Source: Candidatus Moraniibacteriota bacterium | GTDB taxonomy: Bacteria > Patescibacteriota > Minisyncoccia > Moranbacterales > GWC2-37-73 | NCBI GenBank assembly: GCA_038318455.1 | Contig: JBBQCF010000001.1 | Span: 1 to 53,411 of the forward strand | Reading direction: 5' to 3' | DNA length: 53,411 nucleotides | Part shown: in pieces, positions 22,100 to 33,421 of the stretch | How positions within the stretch are numbered: position 1 is the stretch's first letter | Layout: the number at the start of each line of letters is the position of its first letter | Program-made: the position numbers and the translations under genes | Notes under the pieces: model-generated | Told to the model about the DNA's origin: nothing | The model's database searches: none | The model's input: only the letters and a program-made list of their open reading frames with translations

Positions 22100-22333
22100 T
22101 TATTTAATCATTTTTTTAATTTCCTTTTCTATTCTCTCCCAATCATTACTGGTGAATCCTTTGCGAAGCTCATCTTTTTTCTTAAGCATTGCAATGATAT
22201 CTTCAACAGCTATGTCATGATTTTTCTCCAATTCTCTTTCAGCGTCCCTAATGGCATCCTTAGTATAACTAAGGAGTTTCATTTCATGTTCTTCGGCAAT
22301 TTTCAAAACAAAATCTTTCAAATAAATAATCAT
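22100..22333 (-). CDS. Hypothetical small helical protein
   Basis: This is a 77-aa ORF lying 5 nt downstream of the preceding ORF. Confidence 0.6.
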   Translation of the reverse strand: MIIYLKDFVLKIAEEHEMKLLSYTKDAIRDAERELEKNHDIAVEDIIAMLKKKDELRKGFTSNDWERIEKEIKKMIK

Positions 22334-22338
22334 ATTTT

Positions 22339-22614
22339 TTATTGGCGACCCAGTGTGTTTATCTGGTGTTTAAATTTAATTAATTCTGCTTGCATTTGAA
22401 CATGCGCGGCAGTCATCTTCTTGTATTCATTTTCCTTGGCGGTAAATTCTTGTTGCAATCGCTCTTGCTTGTGCTTAAGCTCTCGCATGGCAAGCTCCAC
22501 TTCAATCAAGGAATGTTCTATTTTCTTCACATCTGATTGCTTAAGCATAGACTCCATTTGCAATCTTTTCTTTTGTGCAATCAAAGCGAAATCTTTATCG
22601 TTTAAATTATTCAT
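22339..22614 (-). CDS. Hypothetical coiled-coil protein
   Basis: This is a 91-aa ORF rich in K/E/Q. Confidence 0.6.
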   Translation of the reverse strand: MNNLNDKDFALIAQKKRLQMESMLKQSDVKKIEHSLIEVELAMRELKHKQERLQQEFTAKENEYKKMTAAHVQMQAELIKFKHQINTLGRQ

Positions 22615-22678: not shown

Positions 22679-22710
22679 AAAAACTCCCCCAGTAAAGGAG
22701 GAGTTTTTAA
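22679..22710. terminator. Bidirectional terminator separating the paralog array from downstream genes
   Basis: The stem aaactcc/ggagttt is extended by partial pairing of the adjacent c and g runs and is flanked by an A-run and a T-run. Confidence 0.6.
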
Positions 22711-22735: not shown

Positions 22736-22799
22736 TTTTTTGCATTTGCATTTTTGCATTTTACTTTACAACTTTACAAACTTGTAGCTTGATAAACTT
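22736..22799 (-). repeat. Array-edge stub: a copy of the inter-paralog spacer plus the first 11 nt (ATGCAAATGCA) of a paralog
   Basis: Bases 22736-22822 align almost base for base with 23996-24083. The stub reads MQMQKITIYLG and then stops. Confidence 0.8.
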
Positions 22800-24011
22800 T
22801 TACTGCCACTTGCTCATCATAATTCCCAAATCTTTTGTATTCACAACATTATCAAAATTTATATCAGAAATATTTTCAACATGAAGCCAGTTGGAGACTA
22901 GGGTTGTGAAATTTGAAATTGAATAGGCTAGTCCTGCCGATGATCCAATAATAATAGGAACGCCATTAGCATTTTGATTTCCATTTTCATCAATCACATA
23001 AAGATATGCAGTTTCTCCATTTATAAATGTTCCTTGATTGAGAGAAAATGAAATATTATTGTCTGACCATGTCGTGACAGGCTGAATCTCACAGTGAGTG
23101 CTGCTTGCCAAAGTATTTCCATTGCAGATCTCAACTCTAGAGAAAGCATTATCCACGTATATTTCTCCAAAATCCGTATCCAGATTTTCAAAATCCAAAG
23201 CTGGCGGATTCACATAACTTGTACCACTGTTATCAAAGCCTATATGTCCAGGTATTAAAGGTAGTGATGTTCCTGAATATTTAATAAAATTATTTCCATC
23301 GCTCATCAGAATTCTATTCAAATACATTTTCACGCTATGGTTTGTAGCATCAACTGAAACCTCAACTCTATTCCAAGCTCCAATCTGCATTGGACGAGGA
23401 TAGCAAAAAGTACCTCCGCCTCCATTGGCCCCCTCATCTAAAATTGGCCAAGTAGTTACATATTCAGTAAAGGAAATCCTTGTACCAACACCATTTTTAT
23501 CATCCCAAATCCTAACAAATTTATTTGTACCTATAGGACTGCCATCCACTTTAAAAGATGACATATTGGTCTTTATCCAAAAAGTAAAATACAATTTATC
23601 CATACTTCCCACTCCATTTTTAGGCCATCCCACACTTGCCTTATATCCGTGAGTATAATAATGAGCAGTTCTAAAACCTCTTTGCGCTCTTGATGTTGTA
23701 TATTTTGTTGGAAAAACATTATTTGTAAGTTCATAGACCGTGGTTGGCACATTGTCCATATCAGCCAATCCATTATAAGTATTCTGGTTATCCACAGTGT
23801 CCCAAAGCTGTGGGGCGGGACTATTTTTTATGCCAAAACTATTTCCTACGATATCGATCTGCTGTCCATCGCTCACTGTGCCAATAAGGTTGGAAATACT
23901 TACTTCAGCATTTGCATCTTGCACCAAACAAAATCCTAGCAGAAAAATTGCTAAAAATATTTTTATGAAATTTCTTCCACCAGCTGACGGATTTTCTTTT
24001 TGCATTTGCAT
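22800..24011 (-). CDS. Secreted ConA/LamG-like jelly-roll protein with a C-terminal dockerin-like module (paralog 1 of 4)
   Basis: It is 403 aa with a signal peptide ...LVQDANA. The C-terminus YSISNFTTLVSNWLHVENISDINFDNVVNTKDLGIMMSKWQ is shared by all four paralogs. Confidence 0.75.
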   Translation of the reverse strand: MQMQKENPSAGGRNFIKIFLAIFLLGFCLVQDANAEVSISNLIGTVSDGQQIDIVGNSFGIKNSPAPQLWDTVDNQNTYNGLADMDNVPTTVYELTNNVFPTKYTTSRAQRGFRTAHYYTHGYKASVGWPKNGVGSMDKLYFTFWIKTNMSSFKVDGSPIGTNKFVRIWDDKNGVGTRISFTEYVTTWPILDEGANGGGGTFCYPRPMQIGAWNRVEVSVDATNHSVKMYLNRILMSDGNNFIKYSGTSLPLIPGHIGFDNSGTSYVNPPALDFENLDTDFGEIYVDNAFSRVEICNGNTLASSTHCEIQPVTTWSDNNISFSLNQGTFINGETAYLYVIDENGNQNANGVPIIIGSSAGLAYSISNFTTLVSNWLHVENISDINFDNVVNTKDLGIMMSKWQ

Positions 24012-24060
24012 TTTTGAATTTTACTTTAAAAACTTTACAAACTTGTAGCTTGATAAAATT

Positions 24061-25131
24061 TTACTGCCACTTGCTCATCATCACTCCCAAATCTTTCGTA
24101 TTTATAATATTATCAGCATTAAAATCAGATACAGTTCCAAGATGAAGCCAATTTGAAATTAAGGTTGTAAAATTGGAGATTGAAAAAGTTACAGGAACAT
24201 TAACAATAGGGCCGATAAATGGATTGTTTTCAGCATCACGATTTGTTGGATTTGTACTAATTGCAATATTATCAATATCAATATAAAAACATCCAATGCC
24301 TGTATCGCCAACTTGGGATAAATTAACTTCAAATGCCATATGTTTTTTTGGCCACGCAGTACCCAGATTTAAATTTTTTCTACTCATCTTTAACACACCA
24401 TCAACCCAAAATTCCTCTGCTCCATCGGTACCGAGATCTCCTGATTGTTTTTTAATATGTATCTCATAAATATGCCAGAGACCATCACCAATAGCACTAC
24501 CTTGTGTCGCTACCCACCCAGTATTCGATTCACCATACACATTCTCAAATGGATCCATATGGTCTTGGTTCCAAAATTTCCATGTGTCATATTTATGCGC
24601 CCCAACAAAATTATCAAATTTATCAGCAACAGCTCCACTAAAAATAACTGGAGCCCCTCCCTCGCCATCACTAAATAACAATACTTTTTCCTCATCCATT
24701 ACAAGCCAAGTAAATCCATATTGATATCTTTTGTAAAAACGTACCCATATTTCATTTACAGGAGTAGCGAGGTTAATTATTACATTACCTGAACCATCAT
24801 TTTTTCCAGGAAAGAGCTCCCATGGCGGTACAGCCTGTCCTCCATGCCAAAAACGAATACCCTTTCCACTTCCACCATAAGCAGCATCAGATGTTAGCTG
24901 CGTAAATTGTCCGCTAGAGCATGAGCGAGTTGCACCAGAAGTGAGGTCATTAATAACATTTCCTCCATTTAAGATTCCATCTGGATAACTGTCAAAATTT
25001 TCAGACCAAGGAGTTACAATTTGCGCATTCACCTTTTGCACTTCAAAAAAAATTAGTAAAAAAAATATTACTAAACTTATTTTTTGAATTTCTTTTCGCC
25101 AGCTGGCGAATTTTTCTTTGTGCATTTGCAT
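24061..25131 (-). CDS. Secreted ConA/LamG-like jelly-roll protein with a C-terminal dockerin-like module (paralog 2 of 4)
   Basis: It is 356 aa with a signal peptide ...VQKVNA. It contains GLWHIYEIHIK...FWVDGVL and the C-terminus FSISNFTTLISNWLH...DFNADNIINTKDLGVMMSKWQ. Confidence 0.75.
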   Translation of the reverse strand: MQMHKEKFASWRKEIQKISLVIFFLLIFFEVQKVNAQIVTPWSENFDSYPDGILNGGNVINDLTSGATRSCSSGQFTQLTSDAAYGGSGKGIRFWHGGQAVPPWELFPGKNDGSGNVIINLATPVNEIWVRFYKRYQYGFTWLVMDEEKVLLFSDGEGGAPVIFSGAVADKFDNFVGAHKYDTWKFWNQDHMDPFENVYGESNTGWVATQGSAIGDGLWHIYEIHIKKQSGDLGTDGAEEFWVDGVLKMSRKNLNLGTAWPKKHMAFEVNLSQVGDTGIGCFYIDIDNIAISTNPTNRDAENNPFIGPIVNVPVTFSISNFTTLISNWLHLGTVSDFNADNIINTKDLGVMMSKWQ

Positions 25132-25181
25132 TTATGTATTTTCTAAAAAGCTAATGAAGCTAGGGCCTAATAAACTAACTG

Positions 25182-26198
25182 TCAGTTCCATTTCGACATC
25201 ATCGCACCAAGGTCTCTGGTATTTACAATATTATCTGAATTTAAATCAGAGTAATTTCCAGCGCCGACATGAAGCCAACTAGAAACAAGGGTTGTGAAAT
25301 TGGAGATGGAGAAAGTTGCAGGAATATTAACAATAGGTCCATTTCCATAGGAGTCAATATTGGGCGGCGTAGTGTTATATATAACCATATCATCAACATC
25401 AACATAAGCTGGGGCGCCATTGATCGGTGCTCTCATGTTACTAAGGAAGTTAAAGGTATCCCAAGGACCTCCAATAGCTCCTCCTTGTGCCTTCAGATCA
25501 CCATCAATCCAAATTCTTGATTTATTACTAGCTCTATCCAAATAAGCTTCAGCATAATGCCAAGAACCATCAGCGATACCATGATTTGTTGGAAATAAAT
25601 TTTTCCATCCCCAATTTAAATTTGAACCTACCGCATCCCCCACTCTTGCGGTTGAAATATTAGATCCACCTTGCACAATTCTGATTTCATTTCCTGAAGA
25701 TGGTCCGAAAACTTCCCAGCCATCATTATTTGAGCTACGAAAATATAGCCATTTGTGATATTGCGGTGACCAAGCAACACTATCGTAATCATAATCAAAT
25801 TTAAAACCATCTTGATAATGGATATAGAATCGCACCCAAATTTTATCAGTACCTGGGAAAACCACAGACACCGGAGAAGTTTCGATATTTTCCCCATCTC
25901 CATACCACATTCGATATCCATTGCCTCCTGCTCCATTGCCATAATTAGCAGCTGCTGTTACTTGAGATTTATTTCCTGCTGCAATAAAGGGAATGTCACC
26001 AGCTCCCCAGACGCCAAGATTATCACAAGTTGACATGGATGTTGGCTCAGAGCGTTCGGCACAATTAAAAGTAGTTTCCCATTTTCCATTGGTAAAACTA
26101 ATGTCTGCTCGTGAAACTTTAGTGCCAATCACAAAAATATTCAACACAAAAAATACTATACAAATTCTTATTAATTTTATATTTTGTATTTTTCGCAT
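25182..26198 (-). CDS. Secreted ConA/LamG-like jelly-roll protein with a C-terminal dockerin-like module (paralog 3 of 4)
   Basis: It is 338 aa with a signal peptide ...KVSRA. It contains GSWHYAEAYLD...IWIDGDL and the C-terminus FSISNFTTLVSSWLH...DLNSDNIVNTRDLGAMMSKWN. Confidence 0.75.
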   Translation of the reverse strand: MRKIQNIKLIRICIVFFVLNIFVIGTKVSRADISFTNGKWETTFNCAERSEPTSMSTCDNLGVWGAGDIPFIAAGNKSQVTAAANYGNGAGGNGYRMWYGDGENIETSPVSVVFPGTDKIWVRFYIHYQDGFKFDYDYDSVAWSPQYHKWLYFRSSNNDGWEVFGPSSGNEIRIVQGGSNISTARVGDAVGSNLNWGWKNLFPTNHGIADGSWHYAEAYLDRASNKSRIWIDGDLKAQGGAIGGPWDTFNFLSNMRAPINGAPAYVDVDDMVIYNTTPPNIDSYGNGPIVNIPATFSISNFTTLVSSWLHVGAGNYSDLNSDNIVNTRDLGAMMSKWN

Positions 26199-26239
26199 TT
26201 CACATTATGAACCTTACGAACTTGAAAATTTATGAACTT

Positions 26240-27289
26240 CTATTCCCACTTACTCATCATTATCCCCAGATCTTTTGTGTTAATTATACCATCAATATTG
26301 ATATCACTAGCATTGCCAGATCCAAGATGAAGCCAATTTGAAATTAAGGTTGTAAAGTTGGAGATTGAATAGGTTATTGAAGAAGCTATAATTGGACCAA
26401 TAAAAGGATTTCCATAGGAGTCAATATTGGGCGGCGTAGTGTTATATATAACCATGTCGTCATAAAAAACATTTGGGAAAACATTTGGCACCATAAAAGA
26501 TTGATTAGAACTAAAATATAATTTTTCCCATCCATTTTTTGATGATAAAGATCCATGTGAATAATTTACAGTCTCTGAGAAAATCCTCAACTCTCCATCA
26601 ATCCATAATTTACCAATGCCATCAGAAGCTGCATTATAAGAGCTTATTCCATATGTATCCATTTTTAAATGCATTTCATAGGAGTGCCACAAACCATCTC
26701 CATGAATATGTCCTCCCATGTGTTCTGACCAAGAATAATTATTTATTGCCAATGTATTATTGCATCGCTCTGTACAATCACCCTGGCAAACAAATCTGAA
26801 TTGATTTCCTCCAGATTCTGGTTCTAAAATTGTTTGCACAGTATCTCCTCCCGCAGTTAAAAATATTATTTTTTCCCATCCATAAGAAAGCATATCCCAA
26901 TCTATAGGATGTAGCATATACCATCGAATCCATAATTCTTTTTGTGGTGAGGGAAATATAACACCAACTTGAGCAGATGATATATTTGTCCCGGGAGCAT
27001 CCACAAAGGAAATACCGCCGCCGCCCAATCCATCGGGATTGTTTGCCCTAACATTTATTTTAGTTTTATATTCAATTTCAACAGGCATTTCTGCTGAAGC
27101 ATCTAATATTTTTGTAAGATTATCACAACTCAAAGTATCAGGATCAATCCAATCAGCACAATCAAATGTCGTCTCCCACTTTCCATTTGTAAAAGTTACT
27201 GCAGCATTTGCACTTTGAACTCCAAAAAAACTTAGCAAAAAAATTGTTAAAAATATTTTTATTAATTTTATATTTTGTATTTTTCGCAT
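26240..27289 (-). CDS. Secreted ConA/LamG-like jelly-roll protein with a C-terminal dockerin-like module (paralog 4 of 4)
   Basis: It is 349 aa with a signal peptide ...VQSANA. It contains GLWHSYEMHLK...LWIDGEL and the C-terminus YSISNFTTLISNWLH...DINIDGIINTKDLGIMMSKWE. Confidence 0.75.
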   Translation of the reverse strand: MRKIQNIKLIKIFLTIFLLSFFGVQSANAAVTFTNGKWETTFDCADWIDPDTLSCDNLTKILDASAEMPVEIEYKTKINVRANNPDGLGGGGISFVDAPGTNISSAQVGVIFPSPQKELWIRWYMLHPIDWDMLSYGWEKIIFLTAGGDTVQTILEPESGGNQFRFVCQGDCTERCNNTLAINNYSWSEHMGGHIHGDGLWHSYEMHLKMDTYGISSYNAASDGIGKLWIDGELRIFSETVNYSHGSLSSKNGWEKLYFSSNQSFMVPNVFPNVFYDDMVIYNTTPPNIDSYGNPFIGPIIASSITYSISNFTTLISNWLHLGSGNASDINIDGIINTKDLGIMMSKWE

Positions 27290-27351
27290 TTCACCCTATG
27301 AACCTTACGAACTTGAAACTTTATGAACTTCTATTCCCACTTACTCATCAT
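27290..27351 (-). repeat. Array-edge stub: a spacer copy plus the last 6 codons and stop (MMSKWE*) of a deleted fifth paralog
   Basis: Bases 27262-27351 align with 26174-26260, apart from an extra t at 27261 (ttattaat vs tattaat). Identity ends exactly after ...cttactcatcat, 14 nt from the mnmA stop. Confidence 0.8.
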
Positions 27352-27365
27352 GAAGCTTAAACCCA

Positions 27366-28466
27366 TTATTCAATAATGGTTCCACCGCCAAGCACTTCAT
27401 TGTCATCTGCATAAAAAACTGCTGATTGCCCCGGTGTGATTGCTTTTTGCCTCTCTTTAAATTCTACTTCATACAAAATCTTCGTTGCACTTGTTGCTTG
27501 TTTTTTTATTATACCACGCACCAATGGATGCCGATACCGAATTTTCACATTAACTTCCAACGGTAATTTTGGCTCCGCAACAATCCAATTCTTAAGTTCA
27601 ATTAACATGGTTTTCTTGAAAATTTCATCATCATTTTCATCATTAGTCACAATCAAACAATTATTTTCAAAATCACGTCTGACCACAAAATACGGCCCAT
27701 TGCCACCAATATTGATTCCCTTGCGTTGTCCGATTGTATAGAGCTCCAGACCATCATGCATGCCAATTTTCGCGCCAGCCGTGGTGATAATATCGCCCGG
27801 TGACAAAGTCAGATTACGTTTAATGAATTTGGTGGGGGTTTTTTCGGGTGTGAAACAAAGTCCTTGCGAATCCTCTTTATCAAAAACTGGAAGTTTTATT
27901 TTTTGGGCAATTTTTCTAATTTCTGGTTTTTTGTATGTTCCAACGGGAAACAAAATTCTTGACAATTGATTTTGTGAAAGAGAATACAAAAAATATGTCT
28001 GATCTTTTTCTTCATCAGTTGAGGTGTAGAGATGAAATTTTCCATCAATTTTTTTCACTTCTGCATAATGACCAGTTGCCACAAAGTCTGCATCCATTTC
28101 CAGCATTTTTTTGAACAAAAAATTAAATTTAATTCTTTCATTGCAAACCACGCAAGGATTTGGTGTGCGACCATTTTTTGTTTCTTCCAAAAAATAATCC
28201 ACCACTTCTTTTTTGAATTCCTTGGCAGCATTAGCCGTATAAAGTGGAATATCCAAGATTTGAGCCACTTTGCGCGCATCTTGTTGCGACTCCACGGAGC
28301 AACATTTATTCTCACGAAGTTCATCTTGCCCTGGCTCTTTCCAGAAATGCATAAAAACCCCCACAACGTCATAGCCTTGCTCTTTGAGAAGTGCAGCTGC
28401 CACCGAAGAATCAACTCCCGCGCTCATCCCCACAATTACACGTTTTTTAGCCTTTTTTTCTTTCAT
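27366..28466 (-). CDS. mnmA: tRNA-specific 2-thiouridylase MnmA
   Basis: It has a PP-loop (VGMSAGVDSS) and the catalytic region NPCVVCN. RBS ggag lies 5 nt before ATG 28466; the track begins at GTG 28472. Confidence 0.92.
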   Translation of the reverse strand: MKEKKAKKRVIVGMSAGVDSSVAAALLKEQGYDVVGVFMHFWKEPGQDELRENKCCSVESQQDARKVAQILDIPLYTANAAKEFKKEVVDYFLEETKNGRTPNPCVVCNERIKFNFLFKKMLEMDADFVATGHYAEVKKIDGKFHLYTSTDEEKDQTYFLYSLSQNQLSRILFPVGTYKKPEIRKIAQKIKLPVFDKEDSQGLCFTPEKTPTKFIKRNLTLSPGDIITTAGAKIGMHDGLELYTIGQRKGINIGGNGPYFVVRRDFENNCLIVTNDENDDEIFKKTMLIELKNWIVAEPKLPLEVNVKIRYRHPLVRGIIKKQATSATKILYEVEFKERQKAITPGQSAVFYADDNEVLGGGTIIE

Positions 28467-28511
28467 ATACACTCCATTATATGGCTATTTTCTCATTTTG
28501 TAAACAAAAAA

Positions 28512-28766
28512 TCAGCAAATTAGAGCATTTAAAATTAAAGCTTGTTTTTCTTTTTTTGTTAATTTTTTAATCCTATTTTCCTCTTTCGAAGCCAAAGAGC
28601 GGTTTTTGAATTTTTCAGAATATACCAAAACAACTGGCCGACGACCAGCAGTATATTTTGCTCCCAAAACTGAATTATTGTGCTCATCGACTCGCCTTTC
28701 CAAATCAGTTGTGATGCCAGTATAAAAAGTTTCGTCGACGCATTTTAAAATGTATACCTGCCACAT
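28512..28766 (-). CDS. GIY-YIG nuclease superfamily protein (small stand-alone type)
   Basis: It is 84 aa with VYILKC...FYTGITTDLERRVDEHN, i.e. a GIY-(x10)-YxG...R...E pattern. Confidence 0.85.
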   Translation of the reverse strand: MWQVYILKCVDETFYTGITTDLERRVDEHNNSVLGAKYTAGRRPVVLVYSEKFKNRSLASKEENRIKKLTKKEKQALILNALIC

Positions 28767-28950: not shown

Positions 28951-30267
28951 CTAATTTTCGCATCTTTCCAAAAACTCTCTTTGCATTCTTTTCTTTTTAA
29001 TCACTCCCAATTTTGCAACCTTGCCAACGCTGTCAACTGACAAATCTTTCAATACTTTATCAAATTCATACACACGAGGATTCACTTCCAGCGCGATGTC
29101 ATTAATTCCTAAAAGTTTAATGCCATCAAGAGTTCTAACTCGCGAAAGAGCCACATAGCCCATGCCATATTCAAAAGATTTGGAAAGATCCATTTCGACC
29201 ATATCCAAAGTCATCCCTTGGCTTTTGTGAATCGTGATTGCCCAAGCCAAACGGAGCGGAACTTGCGAAATTGAAGCAAGTGATTTTTCATCTTCTTCGA
29301 TTGACCATTTTTCTGGCGTCGCCACAATTGTTCGCCCAGCCAATGTTTTCACAATAGGCATTCCACCCAAATCAAAACCTGTCACTTTCCCTAGTGTTCC
29401 ATTAACATATCCTCTTTCAAAATTATTTTTCACAAACATCACCACTGCACCTTCTTTGAGAATTAATTTTTCAGGCGCCAGACATCCTTTCATGATCGAA
29501 GCCGCCACAAATTCATTGCCAGCAGTTTTCATGAGGAATGTTTTACTTTCTTCTTTTATTTTTGCCAATTCCAAATTGTTGATCACATCGACATTAACAT
29601 TATGCGTGTAAAGTTTTGTCGGTGTTATATCTTTCTTGATAGATTTATTTTGTCGAGAACAAATGAGGTCAACGGTTTCTTCACTGCAAGAACGCGCGCG
29701 GATATCATTAAGAATTTTGAGCATTTGCTTGTCTTCTTGTCTATGCTGTTCTTCCAAATAACAAACCGTAGGATTCATCTCCTCCCAAGCTGCTGATTCA
29801 ACAACAAAATGTGCTTCTTGACCATATTTCGTCACTGGTGGAAGTTGAAAAAAATCTCCACACAAGATAACCTGAAGCCCACCAAACGGAGAAAATGGCT
29901 CTTTGAATTTTTTGCAAATGGTGTTCACGATATCCAATTGATGAGCATGCAGCATTGAAACTTCATCAATAATTAAAACTTTCACACTATCAAATCTGTT
30001 TTTATGATAATGTCTTTTTTTAAGCTTGGTATAATCATCTTCAGTAAAAGTGTCTCCAATTCCCATGCCTGACCAAGAATGAATAGTCTGACCATTCATA
30101 TGAGTGGCAGCGATTCCAGTAGAGGCAGTTATAGCAACTCCTATACTATTCTTTTTAAGATAATCAATATATTGCTTGAGCAGATATGTCTTACCAGAGC
30201 CAGCAGCGCCAGTGAGAAAAACATTGTGTCCAAGTTTCAGAATATCGAGTGCAGTTTTCTGTTTCAT
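28951..30267 (-). CDS. PIF1/RecD-family ATP-dependent DNA helicase
   Basis: It is 438 aa with Walker A GAAGSGKTY, TGIAATHMNGQTIHS, Walker B IIDEVSM, GDFFQLPPV and IHKSQGMT. Confidence 0.88.
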   Translation of the reverse strand: MKQKTALDILKLGHNVFLTGAAGSGKTYLLKQYIDYLKKNSIGVAITASTGIAATHMNGQTIHSWSGMGIGDTFTEDDYTKLKKRHYHKNRFDSVKVLIIDEVSMLHAHQLDIVNTICKKFKEPFSPFGGLQVILCGDFFQLPPVTKYGQEAHFVVESAAWEEMNPTVCYLEEQHRQEDKQMLKILNDIRARSCSEETVDLICSRQNKSIKKDITPTKLYTHNVNVDVINNLELAKIKEESKTFLMKTAGNEFVAASIMKGCLAPEKLILKEGAVVMFVKNNFERGYVNGTLGKVTGFDLGGMPIVKTLAGRTIVATPEKWSIEEDEKSLASISQVPLRLAWAITIHKSQGMTLDMVEMDLSKSFEYGMGYVALSRVRTLDGIKLLGINDIALEVNPRVYEFDKVLKDLSVDSVGKVAKLGVIKKKRMQREFLERCEN

Positions 30268-31279: not shown

Positions 31280-33421
31280 TTACTGCTTGCTCTCGTCAAT
31301 CATCTTTCTGACTTCATCCAAATTCACTTGTGGCCTTGTTCTTTGTGGTTTAAATTGCTTTGGTGCAATATATTGCATTTGCGAAAGTGACATTGGACGA
31401 TCTTTGGAAATATATGCTTTGTGCTCAATTTTTCTTTCTATCGGTTGCACTGCTTGAGTTGTCTTGGTTTTATATTTTGGAATTTCTTGCATCATTTTTA
31501 TTGGTGCAGATTGAGCTGGAGCTGATTGCTCTCTAGTTTCTTCTTGTTGTCTTTGAATTTTCTTTTCTTGATTAAGTTTTTCCTTAGCATTCATGCGTTG
31601 ATATTCCTTGAGACAATCCTTGCAAAATGTTGGCCTTTTTCCGTCTGGTGCAAATGGAATTTGAATTTCTTCAGCGCACATGTCGCAGATTGCATCAAAT
31701 TTTGGCCTTTCATCGGCAGGTTTTACATAATAATCTGGATTTTCTTCTGGCATTGGCTCTGCTTGAACTTGGGGCTCTATTATTTCTACTACAAATTTTT
31801 CAGTAACCTCTAGAGCTGGAGCAAGATCAGTCTCGCGTCTTTGTGGCACTTGGCTTGGAACAATTTGAGGTTGAATTTCAGCAGTTTTCCCATGCACTCC
31901 TTGCTCATCGTGAGAAGCCTGGAGTGCTTTGTCTTGGACTGGCTGTTTGGTCACATTTCGAGTATCAGGGGCAACAGATGGCCTTGGAGCGCTTGTAGGA
32001 GCATTTGACGGTGAATATTGTCCTGCTGGAGTAGATTGCTGAATATTTGGTCGTGTTGGAGCAAAGTTGCGACTAGCAGGATTTGGAATTGTTTGATGCT
32101 CTGGAGCCTTGTTGACGGTAGTAAAACCAGCAGCTGGCATCACCCCTGCCCAGCGAGAAATTTTATCCTCAACTTCCTCTTTGCTTGAAGCATAGCGCTC
32201 GCGAGAAGATGCGATAATTTTTTCTTCATTACTTTCAGTGTCTCCAATGTAAACTGGTGGCAAAACTTTAGCAGAAAAAGCGTCCCCCGCAATTCCATCA
32301 ATCATCAATTTCAAATAAATATTATATTTTGGCAAATTGACAATATCATTTTGCACAAATACTGGCATGAATTCTTTTTCCAAAAATTCAGCATCCATCG
32401 CACCCACGCGAAAAGAGATGATAGTTCCAGCGTTACCAAAAATAGCATCGCGAACTTTTTCATCAATTTGGGTGATATATTGATTTGCCAAAATCAAATT
32501 CAAACGATATTTTCGAGCTTCCGACAAAATGTTAGCAAAAGATTCTGTGGCAAAGTTTTGAAATTCATCAACGTATAAATAAAAATCCTTACGATCTTCT
32601 TCTGGGATATCCACGCGACCCATAGCAGCGAGCTGAATTTTGGTGATCATCATCGCTCCAAGCAGCGCACCATTGTCCTCGCCAATTCGTCCCTTAGAAA
32701 GATTAATGATCAAAATCTTATTTGTGTCCATCGCATTTCTGATGTCAAAAGACGATGTTGTTTGACCAACAATATTTCGAATAAGTGAACTGGAAAGAAA
32801 TTGCCCGACCTTGTTTTGAATCGGAGACACCACTTCTTGGAGGACTTTGTCACTCCATTTCGGAAATTCATCCACCCAAAACTGCCTAATCACAGGATCA
32901 GTTATCTTTTCCACCACTCTTTCGCGATATTTCTTATCAACCAAGATCCTAGTCACGCCAAGCAAAGTACTGCCAGGGTATTCAAGCAAGGCCAAAATAG
33001 CATTACGCAAAATATATTCAAGTCGTGGTCCCCAAGAATCAGCCCAAATCTTTTTAAAAACTCCAATGAGGCCAGAGGCCACCAAATGACGATAATCAGG
33101 ATCAACAGATTCCATAACATTAAAAGCCAAAGGAAAATTTTGATCAGCTGGGTTTAGATAGATAACATCATTAATGCGACTTGCCGGAATAGCTTTTAGC
33201 AATTTTTCTGCCGTGTCACCATGCGGATCAATATAACAAACGCCGTGACCATTTCTAATATCCTGCACCACCAGATTTTCCAGCAGGTTTGTCTTTCCCA
33301 TACCAGTCTTTCCGATAATATACATATGCCGAGTTCTGTCATCAGTTTTTATTCCGAAAACTCGTTCTTGATTTCTGAAAGTTGTTTTTGCAAAAAATGC
33401 AATTTCATTATTTTGTGCCAT
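31280..33421 (-). CDS. TraD/VirD4-like (FtsK-HerA superfamily) P-loop ATPase with a low-complexity linker and a C-terminal CxxC-x17-CxxC zinc ribbon
   Basis: It is 713 aa with Walker A IIGKTGMGKTN and Walker B FYLYVDEFQNF. A P/Q/S-rich region lies at about residues 440-560. It then carries CDMCAEEIQIPFAPDGKRPTFCKDC and a Lys-rich tail. Confidence 0.8.
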   Translation of the reverse strand: MAQNNEIAFFAKTTFRNQERVFGIKTDDRTRHMYIIGKTGMGKTNLLENLVVQDIRNGHGVCYIDPHGDTAEKLLKAIPASRINDVIYLNPADQNFPLAFNVMESVDPDYRHLVASGLIGVFKKIWADSWGPRLEYILRNAILALLEYPGSTLLGVTRILVDKKYRERVVEKITDPVIRQFWVDEFPKWSDKVLQEVVSPIQNKVGQFLSSSLIRNIVGQTTSSFDIRNAMDTNKILIINLSKGRIGEDNGALLGAMMITKIQLAAMGRVDIPEEDRKDFYLYVDEFQNFATESFANILSEARKYRLNLILANQYITQIDEKVRDAIFGNAGTIISFRVGAMDAEFLEKEFMPVFVQNDIVNLPKYNIYLKLMIDGIAGDAFSAKVLPPVYIGDTESNEEKIIASSRERYASSKEEVEDKISRWAGVMPAAGFTTVNKAPEHQTIPNPASRNFAPTRPNIQQSTPAGQYSPSNAPTSAPRPSVAPDTRNVTKQPVQDKALQASHDEQGVHGKTAEIQPQIVPSQVPQRRETDLAPALEVTEKFVVEIIEPQVQAEPMPEENPDYYVKPADERPKFDAICDMCAEEIQIPFAPDGKRPTFCKDCLKEYQRMNAKEKLNQEKKIQRQQEETREQSAPAQSAPIKMMQEIPKYKTKTTQAVQPIERKIEHKAYISKDRPMSLSQMQYIAPKQFKPQRTRPQVNLDEVRKMIDESKQ

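What the first reader, a model, noticed from the sequence alone, without database searches (positions are those of the whole stretch)
22736..27352. Tandem array of four diverged secreted jelly-roll paralogs, bounded by gene-end stubs: a recombining surface or secreted protein cassette
Four same-strand genes (403, 356, 338 and 349 aa) follow one another with only 41-50-nt spacers. Each gene has its own signal peptide and a variable central domain with ConA/LamG-like hallmarks (GxWHxYExH..., [FILW]W[IV]DG). Each ends in the same ~45-aa C-terminal module. Paralogs 1 and 2 start MQMQK/MQMHK, and paralogs 3 and 4 start MRKIQNIKLI. Spacers are conserved pairwise (24012-24060 with 22751-22799; 26199-26239 with 27290-27330). 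At the downstream edge (22736-22799) there is a copy of the spacer plus the first 11 nt of a paralog, giving a stub that reads MQMQKITIYLG and then stops. At the upstream edge (27331-27351) sit the last 6 codons and stop (MMSKWE*) of a deleted fifth copy, 14 nt from the mnmA stop. These stubs are footprints of unequal crossing-over, which implies an expanding and contracting gene family. The central domains differ strongly, consistent with diversifying ligand (glycan?) specificity. In an episymbiotic small-genome bacterium, this is a plausible host-interaction or nutrient-capture system without a described counterpart.
Basis: partly seen in the sequence, partly recalled or inferred. Interest (0 to 1): 0.7.

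Follow-up and report, generated by a model that had tools for sequence, protein, structure and literature searches.

The report
Dockerin-tailed secreted jelly-roll protein array
A small-genome (Moranbacteria-type) bacterium carries four adjacent genes for exported sugar-polymer-binding or sugar-polymer-cutting proteins. All four end in the same shortened "dockerin" attachment tag, and patches of shared DNA show the genes have exchanged sequence. This is a recognisable variant of a known design rather than a new kind of system.

Summary
Four minus-strand genes (403, 356, 338 and 349 aa; spacers 41-50 nt) each have a signal peptide, a beta-jelly-roll body and a shared ~43-aa C-terminal module. 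A 21-nt tail stub sits upstream and a spacer plus 15-nt head stub sits downstream.

- **Bodies.** P2-P4 belong to a polysaccharide-lyase-like jelly-roll family whose relatives hit Pfam PF14099 and PF21294; the closest folds are PL36, PL14, Cip1 and PL20. P1 has a different architecture (IPT, LamG-like jelly roll, Ig) and is related only at profile level (hhalign 95.9%).
- **Age.** The bodies diverged long ago. P2-P4 do not cluster with each other, so this is not recent local diversification.
- **Tail.** The tail is a truncated dockerin (hhalign 97.7%, E 2e-12) that lacks the first calcium loop. It occurs at the extreme C-terminus of proteins in about 870 clusters with many body types. In the genome scan it was found almost only in Moranbacteria-type MAGs, often in tandem arrays with orphan tails.
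- **Exchange.** Sequence exchange is supported by a 34/35 stub match, a 48-nt perfect patch in P3/P4, and 83% identity over 166 nt between genes of different families.

Most likely function: surface-displayed or secreted glycan lyases or binders. Lyase activity and the docking partner are untested. Moderate interest.

The parts
27331..27351 (-). Upstream stub: the last 6 codons plus stop (MMSKWE*) of a tail module, 14 nt after the mnmA stop
   Evidence: 34/35 match to the P4 tail end plus spacer, chance expectation 0; family D5, 129 nt at 88%
27290..27330 (-). Spacer upstream of P4 (same type as the P4|P3 spacer)
26240..27289 (-). P4, 349 aa: signal peptide (27203-27289), polysaccharide-lyase-like beta-jelly roll, truncated dockerin tail (26240-26377 including stop)
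26199..26239 (-). P4|P3 spacer (41 nt)
25182..26198 (-). P3, 338 aa: signal peptide (26106-26198), polysaccharide-lyase-like jelly roll, tail (25182-25319). The patch 25341-25405 is 91% identical to 26408-26472 in P4 and includes 48 perfectly identical nt
   Evidence: (D9)
25132..25181 (-). P3|P2 spacer (50 nt, the most divergent of the five)
24061..25131 (-). P2, 356 aa: signal peptide (25024-25131), polysaccharide-lyase-like jelly roll (weak direct PF14099 hit, E 0.046), tail (24061-24192)
24012..24060 (-). P2|P1 spacer (49 nt)
22800..24011 (-). P1, 403 aa: signal peptide (23907-24011), IPT-like strands, LamG-like jelly roll, Ig-like domain (~aa 292-360), tail (22800-22931). A different family from P2-P4
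22737..22799 (-). Downstream stub: a copy of the P2|P1 spacer (22752-22799) plus the first 15 nt of a P1/P2-type head (ATGCAAATGCAAAAA, 22737-22751)
   Evidence: D6 94% over 35 nt; D3 83% over 166 nt
22684..22703 (-). Terminator-like hairpin plus T-run that closes the array

Best explanation
The locus is a co-oriented cluster, probably transcribed together with mnmA and ended by the hairpin at 22684-22703. It encodes four Sec-exported proteins built on one plan: signal peptide, carbohydrate-active beta-jelly-roll body, truncated dockerin tail.

P2-P4 belong to a polysaccharide-lyase-like family related to PL14, PL20, heparinase I and Cip1. They keep the family's invariant polar residues (R122, Y124, K140, Q169, E205, N262, D277 in P4 numbering). 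P1 is an IPT, LamG-like, Ig protein of a separate family.

Inferred mechanism: after export, the single-calcium-loop dockerin tail holds the proteins on a surface partner (a cohesin-like protein or an envelope component). There the bodies bind, and probably cleave by beta-elimination, acidic polysaccharides of a host or of the surrounding matrix.

The shared DNA blocks (tail end, spacer, gene head) are kept similar partly by protein-level selection on the tail and partly by gene conversion or recombination. The two stubs are remnants of such events.

Status of each step:
- Shown: gene anatomy, folds (predicted), dockerin homology, mosaic DNA identity, and the tail's distribution in Moranbacteria-type genomes.
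- Inferred: export, anchoring, lyase activity, co-transcription and biological target.
For: - **Body family.** 17 of 50 family members hit PF14099 and 12 of 50 hit PF21294. The AF2 model of P4 has pLDDT 81. Its top Foldseek hits are alginate lyases Aly36B and vAL-1, AkAly30 and Cip1, at E 1e-8 to 1e-6. The P1 model has pLDDT 82.5 and hits X122, lectin-like jelly rolls and the PL20 lyase 2zzj.
- **Conserved residues.** The family invariants are retained in all three window genes. Q169 aligns with Cip1 Gln104, which corresponds to vAL-1 Gln120. The DD motif aligns with the calcium ligand Asp206 (PMC3764139).
- **Tail.** hhalign against dockerins gives probability 97.7% and E 2e-12. The tail profile finds 872 clusters, and full-length matches lie at the extreme C-terminus. 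Proteins matched several times by its second half are PF00404 dockerins, E down to 1e-30. There is a weak NF041540 'dockerin_GC' hit on a relative. True dockerins sit at the same position in homologues P0008 and P0041.
- **Recombination.**
- **Relatives.** Arrays and orphan tails.
- **Terminator.**
Against: - None of the four proteins reaches a Pfam or NCBIfam threshold on its own.
- Cip1, the only sequence-level PDB match (E 0.085), showed no measurable lyase activity (PMC3764139).
- Catalytic residues could not be mapped in three dimensions because no model coordinates were available.
- The first dockerin calcium loop is missing.
- No cohesin was found among the 30 window ORFs of at least 120 aa that were scanned against Pfam; several others, including the large truncated repeat protein at 1-3191, were not scanned.
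- The tail is modelled with low confidence (pLDDT about 50).
- Synonymous-site excess in the tails is modest: the P3-P4 tails share only 37% of codons.
Confidence: 0.6

Rival explanations
1. The bodies are non-catalytic lectin-like adhesins. They bind host or matrix glycans without cutting them, and the array provides several binding specificities on the cell surface.
For: The jelly-roll fold also matches lectin-like receptor-binding domains and non-enzymatic X122 domains. Cip1 has no demonstrated lyase activity. P1's relatives are annotated only as LamG domain proteins.
Against: P2-P4 keep an invariant Arg/Tyr/Lys/Gln/Glu set across 50 homologues from several phyla, which is more typical of an active site. 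Relatives are recognised by lyase Pfam models.
Confidence: 0.3
2. The shared head, spacer and tail blocks are conserved only by function: a protein-level constraint on the tail and a regulatory element in the spacer. The stubs are old decay remnants, and the array is static.
For: The tail is conserved across hundreds of protein clusters. The P3-P4 tails share only 37% of codons. An A/AAGT-rich spacer resembling the window's occurs in another genome (L004). A spacer copy also follows the last gene in L001 and L004.
Against: A 48-nt perfect identity patch with rare codons lies inside P3/P4 bodies that are otherwise about 55% identical. The 21-nt stub has no coding role yet is 100% identical to P4's tail end. 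P1 and P2, from different families, share the most similar flanks.
Confidence: 0.25
3. The tail is not a cohesin-binding module. It is a lineage-specific sorting or cell-wall attachment signal, functionally like a T9SS C-terminal domain or an S-layer anchor.
For: Homologues in other phyla carry Por_Secre_tail or other sorting tails at the same position. The first calcium loop is lost. No cohesin was seen among the window proteins scanned. The tail always ends within 0-3 residues of the C-terminus.
Against: There is clear homology to dockerin helix-loop-helix repeats with an intact DxNxDxxxNxxD loop. No processing-enzyme gene is adjacent.
Confidence: 0.25
4. One reading: one gene family expanding and contracting in place by unequal crossing-over, with central domains diversifying rapidly for new ligand specificities.
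For: Stubs and mosaic identity. Copy number varies among relatives.
Against: P1 belongs to a different ancient family. P2-P4 do not group together in a tree of 50 homologues, and each has equally close relatives in other phyla. The bodies are saturated at synonymous sites, so dN/dS cannot be estimated.
Confidence: 0.12

Closest known systems
Type I dockerin modules (Pfam PF00404), cellulosomal and non-cellulosomal
   Same: C-terminal position on Sec-exported carbohydrate-active proteins. Helix, DxNxDxxxNxxD calcium loop, helix. hhalign probability 97.7%. The tail profile retrieves genuine PF00404 proteins.
   Different: Only one canonical calcium loop; the first is replaced by (Y/F)SISNF. About 43 aa instead of about 60-70. 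It does not reach the PF00404 threshold (best E 0.065). No cohesin partner is known. In the genome scan it was found almost only in Moranbacteria-type MAGs.
Beta-jelly-roll polysaccharide lyases and relatives: PL14 (vAL-1, AkAly30), PL20 glucuronan lyase, PL13 heparinase I (PF14099, PF21294), PL36 Aly36B, Cip1
   Same: Fold (Foldseek E 1e-8 to 1e-6). Relatives of P2-P4 hit these Pfam models. Conserved Gln and calcium-site Asp align with Cip1/vAL-1 residues.
   Different: 9-16% identity to solved structures. The window proteins are below the Pfam thresholds. The family has a conserved extra C-terminal motif, VIYNTTPPNxDxxGNPFIGPI. Activity is unknown.
IPT/TIG plus LamG plus Ig surface proteins ('LamG domain-containing protein', e.g. 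Marinobacter halodurans EZI54_17070)
   Same: P1 aligns over 80-100% of its length at 31-41% identity with this family. Members hit TIG and ConA-like Pfam models.
   Different: P1 carries the Moranbacteria dockerin-type tail. Relatives in other phyla carry a T9SS tail, Ig repeats or nothing.
Tandem surface-protein gene families homogenised by gene conversion (general phenomenon, from my own knowledge: e.g. mycoplasma variable lipoprotein clusters)
   Same: Conserved 5' and 3' blocks flank variable centres. There is mosaic identity, and gene remnants sit at the array edges.
   Different: No silent cassettes, invertible promoters or repeat-based switches were seen. Every gene is complete, the bodies come from different ancient families, and there is no evidence of phase or antigenic variation.

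Membership tests
Dockerin type I (PF00404) | Sequence match to the family model at the curated threshold | tested here: not met
   Pfam scan of 13 tails: one weak hit, E 0.065. Full proteins gave no hit.
Dockerin type I (PF00404) | Profile-level homology to bona fide dockerins | tested here: met
   hhalign probability 97.7%, E 2.3e-12, tail residues 6-44. The tail profile hits PF00404 proteins.
Dockerin type I (PF00404) | Two tandem calcium-binding loop-helix segments | tested here: not met
   Only the second loop, D-x-N-x-D-x-x-x-N-x-x-D, is present. The first segment keeps the helix (TTLxSNWL) but not the loop.
Dockerin type I (PF00404) | Calcium-dependent binding to a cohesin partner | not testable with these tools
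   No cohesin hit among the 30 window ORFs of at least 120 aa scanned against Pfam. Several ORFs and the whole genome were not scanned.
Polysaccharide lyase jelly-roll families (PF14099 / PF21294; PL13, PL14, PL20) | Match to the family HMM at the gathering score | tested here: not met
   P2 scores 14 bits against a cut-off of 29.9; P3 and P4 give no hit. However, 17 and 12 of 50 homologues match at E<0.01.
Polysaccharide lyase jelly-roll families (PF14099 / PF21294; PL13, PL14, PL20) | Beta-jelly-roll fold with a concave cleft sheet | tested here: met
   AF2 pLDDT 81. The top Foldseek hits are PL36 and PL14 lyases and Cip1.
Polysaccharide lyase jelly-roll families (PF14099 / PF21294; PL13, PL14, PL20) | Catalytic base/acid and charge-neutralising residues in the cleft | tested here: inconclusive
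   Invariant R122, Y124, K140, Q169 and E205 are present in P2-P4. Q169 aligns with a substrate-binding Gln of Cip1/vAL-1. No 3D mapping was possible.
Polysaccharide lyase jelly-roll families (PF14099 / PF21294; PL13, PL14, PL20) | Beta-elimination activity on uronic-acid polysaccharides | not testable with these tools
   Needs an enzyme assay.
One paralogous family formed by local tandem duplication | Array members are each other's closest relatives | tested here: not met
   BLASTP finds no P1/P4 body similarity. P2, P3 and P4 are scattered in an NJ tree of 50 homologues. The link is remote and profile-level only.

The most novel reading that the evidence does not exclude
The Moranbacteria 'half-dockerin' tail, the conserved spacer and the gene head together form a recombination-competent junction. 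This junction would let unrelated enzyme bodies be swapped in and out of surface-display arrays, a plug-in cassette system for host-facing glycan-active proteins. It might be anchored by a partner other than a classical cohesin. The stubs, the leader+tail mini-ORF in L004 and the orphan tails in L018 and L019 would be its footprints.
Probability: 0.15. Interest if true: 0.65.

Novelty: new variant of a known kind. Interest (0 to 1): 0.35.

Why it matters
Patescibacteria depend on other cells, and how they attach to and feed on them is largely unknown. A Moranbacteria-associated, single-loop dockerin tag found on hundreds of different exported protein clusters marks a candidate surface proteome. 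It could be purified through one handle, and it points to an undiscovered docking partner. The lyase-like bodies suggest that acidic polysaccharides (capsules or biofilm matrix) are targets. An essential dockerin-domain envelope protein has been reported in a cultivated Saccharibacterium (PMC10633639), so this class of protein may be important for the lifestyle. The recombination footprints are of secondary, evolutionary interest.

Tried and rejected
- **Direct family scans.** Pfam and NCBIfam scans of the four proteins gave nothing above threshold.
- **Solved structures by sequence.** Profile searches found only Cip1 at E 0.085 for P2-P4 and nothing for P1.
- **Related contigs.** The look-up of encoding contigs failed for P0002 and P0005, whose contigs probably hold the most similar arrays.
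- **Tail homologue search.** The word-indexed search with the tail alignment returned only nine short fragments. The exhaustive representative search was needed instead.
- **Metagenome DNA scans.** The scan for tail end plus spacer found nothing. A degenerate tail pattern found two unrelated loci. No near relative with the same mnmA-alaS locus could be compared.
- **dN/dS.** The bodies are 27-39% identical with about 50% same-codon use at identical residues, which is the codon-usage baseline. Synonymous sites are therefore saturated.
- **Spacer promoters.** The promoter scan gave no more hits than shuffled sequence (24 found against 26 expected). The only spacer-linked hits place the -10 element inside the coding sequence.
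- **Mobile island.** I considered this and set it aside. GC content matches the surroundings, the neighbours are housekeeping genes, and no integrase is adjacent.
- **Repeat protein as scaffoldin.** The large repetitive protein at the left edge shows no cohesin-like sequence by eye. It was not scanned against Pfam.
Full report
**1. Observation**

The window region 22.7-27.4 kb holds four minus-strand ORFs:

| Gene | Coordinates | Length |
|---|---|---|
| P4 | 26240-27289 | 349 aa |
| P3 | 25182-26198 | 338 aa |
| P2 | 24061-25131 | 356 aa |
| P1 | 22800-24011 | 403 aa |

They are transcribed in the order P4, P3, P2, P1 and are separated by 41, 50 and 49 nt. mnmA lies immediately upstream (27366-28472; PF03054, E 3e-77). 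alaS lies downstream, after two small ORFs of unknown function.

Each protein starts with a basic n-region, a hydrophobic core and an AxA-type cleavage site. I read this from the sequence; no signal-peptide predictor was available. P1 and P2 start MQMQK/MQMHK. P3 and P4 start MRKIQNIKLI.

The last ~43 residues are 69-79% identical among the four, against 27-39% for the rest.

Both stubs exist.
- **Upstream stub.** ATGATGAGTAAGTGGGAATAG (27331-27351) lies 14 nt after the mnmA stop. With the following spacer it matches P4's own tail end plus spacer at 34 of 35 positions, with zero matches expected in shuffles. The repeat runs over 129 nt at 88% (family D5).
- **Downstream stub.** After the P1 stop there is a copy of the P2|P1 spacer plus ATGCAAATGCAAAAA (15 nt of gene head). 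It shows 94% identity over 35 nt and 83% over 166 nt (families D6 and D3). A terminator-like hairpin follows at 22684-22703.

**2. The bodies**

*P2-P4.* A search with P4 found 54 proteins. P3 and P2 were among them, at 38% and 34% identity. The hits also included proteins from Candidatus Moranbacteria and Deltaproteobacteria and a Desulfatitalea 'polysaccharide lyase'. Of 50 aligned family members, 17 hit Pfam PF14099 (Polysacc_lyase) and 12 hit PF21294 (PL14). The window proteins themselves stay below threshold; P2 reaches E 0.046.

The AF2 model of P4 (pLDDT 81, pTM 0.78) is a beta-jelly roll. Its best PDB matches, at E 2e-8 to 1e-6, are:
- alginate lyase Aly36B (6kzk);
- the X122 domains;
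- PL14 vAL-1 (3a0n, 3gne);
- AkAly30 (5gmt);
- Cip1 (3zyp).

The family has these invariant or near-invariant residues, all present in P2, P3 and P4: W120, R122, Y124, K140, Q169, E205, W229, N262 and D277.

In the only sequence-level PDB alignment (Cip1, E 0.085), Q169 falls on Cip1 Gln104. That residue corresponds to the uronate-binding Gln120 of vAL-1. The DD motif falls on the structural calcium ligand Asp206 (PMC3764139). [quoted passage not shown]

*P1.* P1 is different. BLASTP between the P1 and P4 bodies finds only the signal peptides. P1's own relatives form a family annotated at most as 'LamG domain-containing'. Members hit TIG, Ig and ConA-like Pfam models.

The P1 model (pLDDT 82.5) shows N-terminal strands, a jelly roll, an Ig-like domain at about residues 292-360, and then a helix. 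Foldseek returns X122, lectin-like jelly rolls and PL20 glucuronan lyase 2zzj.

Profile-profile comparison of the two families gives probability 95.9% and E 6e-9 over the jelly-roll core. They are remote members of one superfamily, not recent paralogs.

In a distance tree of the 50 P4-family members, P2, P3 and P4 do not group together. Each has equally close relatives in other organisms. The tree is not robust at this divergence. Even so, it gives no support for in-place diversification.

**3. The tail**

The shared module reads (Y/F)SISNFTTL(I/V)SNWLH(L/V)-x(2-4)-SD(I/L/F)NxD(N/G)(I/V)(I/V)NT(K/R)DLGxMMSKW.

- **Homologues with dockerins.** Homologues of the same bodies in other lineages carry true two-repeat dockerins at this position (P0008 and P0041). 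Others carry different sorting tails, such as Por_Secre_tail.
- **Distribution.** A profile of the four tails, searched against 1.84 billion representatives, finds 872 clusters at E of 1e-3 or better. Among the 150 best hits listed, almost all full-length matches end within about three residues of the C-terminus of proteins 50-1186 aa long.
- **Link to dockerins.** Proteins matched several times by profile positions 22-45 only are genuine PF00404 dockerins, E down to 1e-30.
- **Profile comparison.** hhalign of the tail alignment against an alignment of those dockerins gives probability 97.7% and E 2.3e-12. Tail residues 6-44 align to helix 1, the linker, calcium loop 2 and helix 2.

The tail is therefore a dockerin that has lost its first calcium loop. 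It fails the PF00404 threshold. It has only a weak NCBIfam 'dockerin_GC' echo, on a relative.

Other proteins with this tail have beta-helix, He_PIG, Laminin_G_3 or unknown bodies.

**4. Relatives**

A scan of one genome per species with the tail pattern returned 15 loci.
- Seven are from MAGs labelled Candidatus Moranbacteria or Moraniibacteriota.
- Seven are from MAGs labelled 'uncultured Bdellovibrionales'. I did not verify that label, which may be a binning or naming artefact.
- One is from an Elulimicrobium MAG.

Tail-bearing genes often sit in tandem:
- four in L013;
- three plus two in L006;
- three in L010;
- two in L001.

L004 has two full tail-bearing genes plus a 51-aa ORF consisting only of a signal peptide fused to the loop-helix half of the tail.

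Orphan or severed tails occur in three loci:
- L016, where the tail is cut off by a stop codon;
- L018;
- L019, where by eye the stub lies next to a tRNA-like sequence.

Within L001 and L004 the sequence after the stop codon is conserved between paralogs, including after the last gene. It is rich in A/AAGT motifs. The L004 spacer resembles the window's. I have no explanation for this.

The window is syntenic with L001 across secA, NUDIX, secDF, GGDEF and pheS. In L001 the tail genes lie between hpf and secA. Here they lie between mnmA and alaS. Array position and content are therefore not conserved.

**5. Recombination**

At residues identical between two genes, the bodies use the same codon in 46-58% of cases. 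This matches the codon-usage expectation of about 0.50-0.53. Synonymous sites are therefore saturated, and dN/dS is not informative.

Against that background, several patches stand out:
- P3 and P4 share 48 consecutive identical nucleotides, with 15 of 17 identical codons including rare ACG, CCG and CCC (p about 0.004).
- The P1 and P2 tails share 20 of 27 codons (p about 0.016), plus 83% identity over 166 nt of tail and spacer, although their bodies belong to different families.
- The 21-nt non-coding stub is identical to P4's tail end.

By contrast, the P3 and P4 tails share only 37% of codons. Protein-level selection therefore explains much of the tail conservation.

I conclude that gene conversion or recombination has acted on the junction blocks and on at least one body patch. 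I cannot say whether the stubs arose by unequal crossing-over, by deletion or by conversion overshoot.

**6. Function**

Best reading, with confidence about 0.6 overall: these are exported, surface-docked or released glycan-active proteins. Three are probably lyases for acidic polysaccharides. One is a LamG/Ig binder or enzyme. All are displayed through a lineage-specific single-loop dockerin.

Status of the steps:
- Domain identities rest on predictions of good confidence.
- Export is read from the sequence.
- Lyase chemistry, docking partner, co-transcription with mnmA and any host target are inferred.

The rivals are non-catalytic lectins, static constraint rather than recombination, and a sorting signal rather than cohesin binding. 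They are listed with their tests.

**7. Novelty**

Enzyme-plus-dockerin proteins, non-cellulosomal dockerins and jelly-roll lyases are all known. A dockerin-domain envelope protein has been reported as essential in a cultivated Saccharibacterium (PMC10633639).

What appears undescribed is the truncated single-loop dockerin family. It is found mainly in Moranbacteria-type genomes and has no Pfam or NCBIfam model. Its occurrence in mosaic tandem arrays with orphan tails also appears undescribed. My searches for dockerin with Patescibacteria or CPR, and for Moranbacteria with polysaccharide lyase, found no description of it. This is a new variant of a known kind, of moderate interest.

Noticed in passing
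window 1-3191 (minus strand; ORF runs off the left edge): A very large repetitive exported protein (more than 1060 aa visible). It has a signal-anchor-like N-terminus, dozens of 'KLADGSVTTAKI'-type short repeats, and long 560-840-bp DNA repeats encoding 'GNITGNAATVTNGVYS...' units. It is likely a fibrous surface protein. It shows no obvious cohesin sequence by eye and was not scanned against Pfam.
   Followed up: partly
window spacers 22752-22799, 24012-24060, 26199-26239, 27290-27330; L004 6375-6440; L001 9905-9960 and 11246-11300: The intergenic sequence that follows the tail stop codon is rich in repeated A/AAGT(T) motifs. It resembles the corresponding sequence in other Moranbacteria genomes, and it is also present after the last gene of an array. 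No sigma-70-like promoter or hairpin explains it. It may be a regulatory or recombination element.
   Followed up: partly
L004 6219-6374: A 51-aa ORF consisting of a signal peptide fused directly to the calcium-loop and helix half of the tail (…ATDLNSNGITNAKDLGIMMSKWQ*). It sits immediately upstream of two full tail-bearing genes and looks like a body-deletion derivative.
   Followed up: partly
L019 ~7914-8066: An orphan half-tail (NLNNDGIVNTRDLGIMMSKWQ*) in a Candidatus Elulimicrobium contig. It abuts sequence whose translation (…EDEGSIPFTRS) looks like a tRNA gene read through. This suggests a deletion or insertion breakpoint at a tRNA.
   Followed up: no
window 31280-33421 (-), 28951-30267 (-), 28512-28766 (-): Three genes sit just upstream of mnmA, among housekeeping genes: a TraG/VirD4-like type IV coupling protein (PF10412, PF12696) with a zinc finger, a PIF1-family helicase and a small GIY-YIG protein. 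They may be remnants of a conjugative or DNA-uptake apparatus.
   Followed up: no
window 22100-22333 and 22339-22614 (-): Two small ORFs (77 and 91 aa) rich in charged residues (possibly coiled-coil) lie between the array's terminator and alaS. Neither has a Pfam match.
   Followed up: no
P4-family alignment A3, P4 residues 279-299: A motif, (M/I)VIYNTTPPNxDxxGNPFIGPI, follows the jelly roll in about 45 of 50 family members across phyla. It is not part of known PL14 or PL20 structures, and its role (linker, glycosylation site or processing site) is unknown.
   Followed up: no
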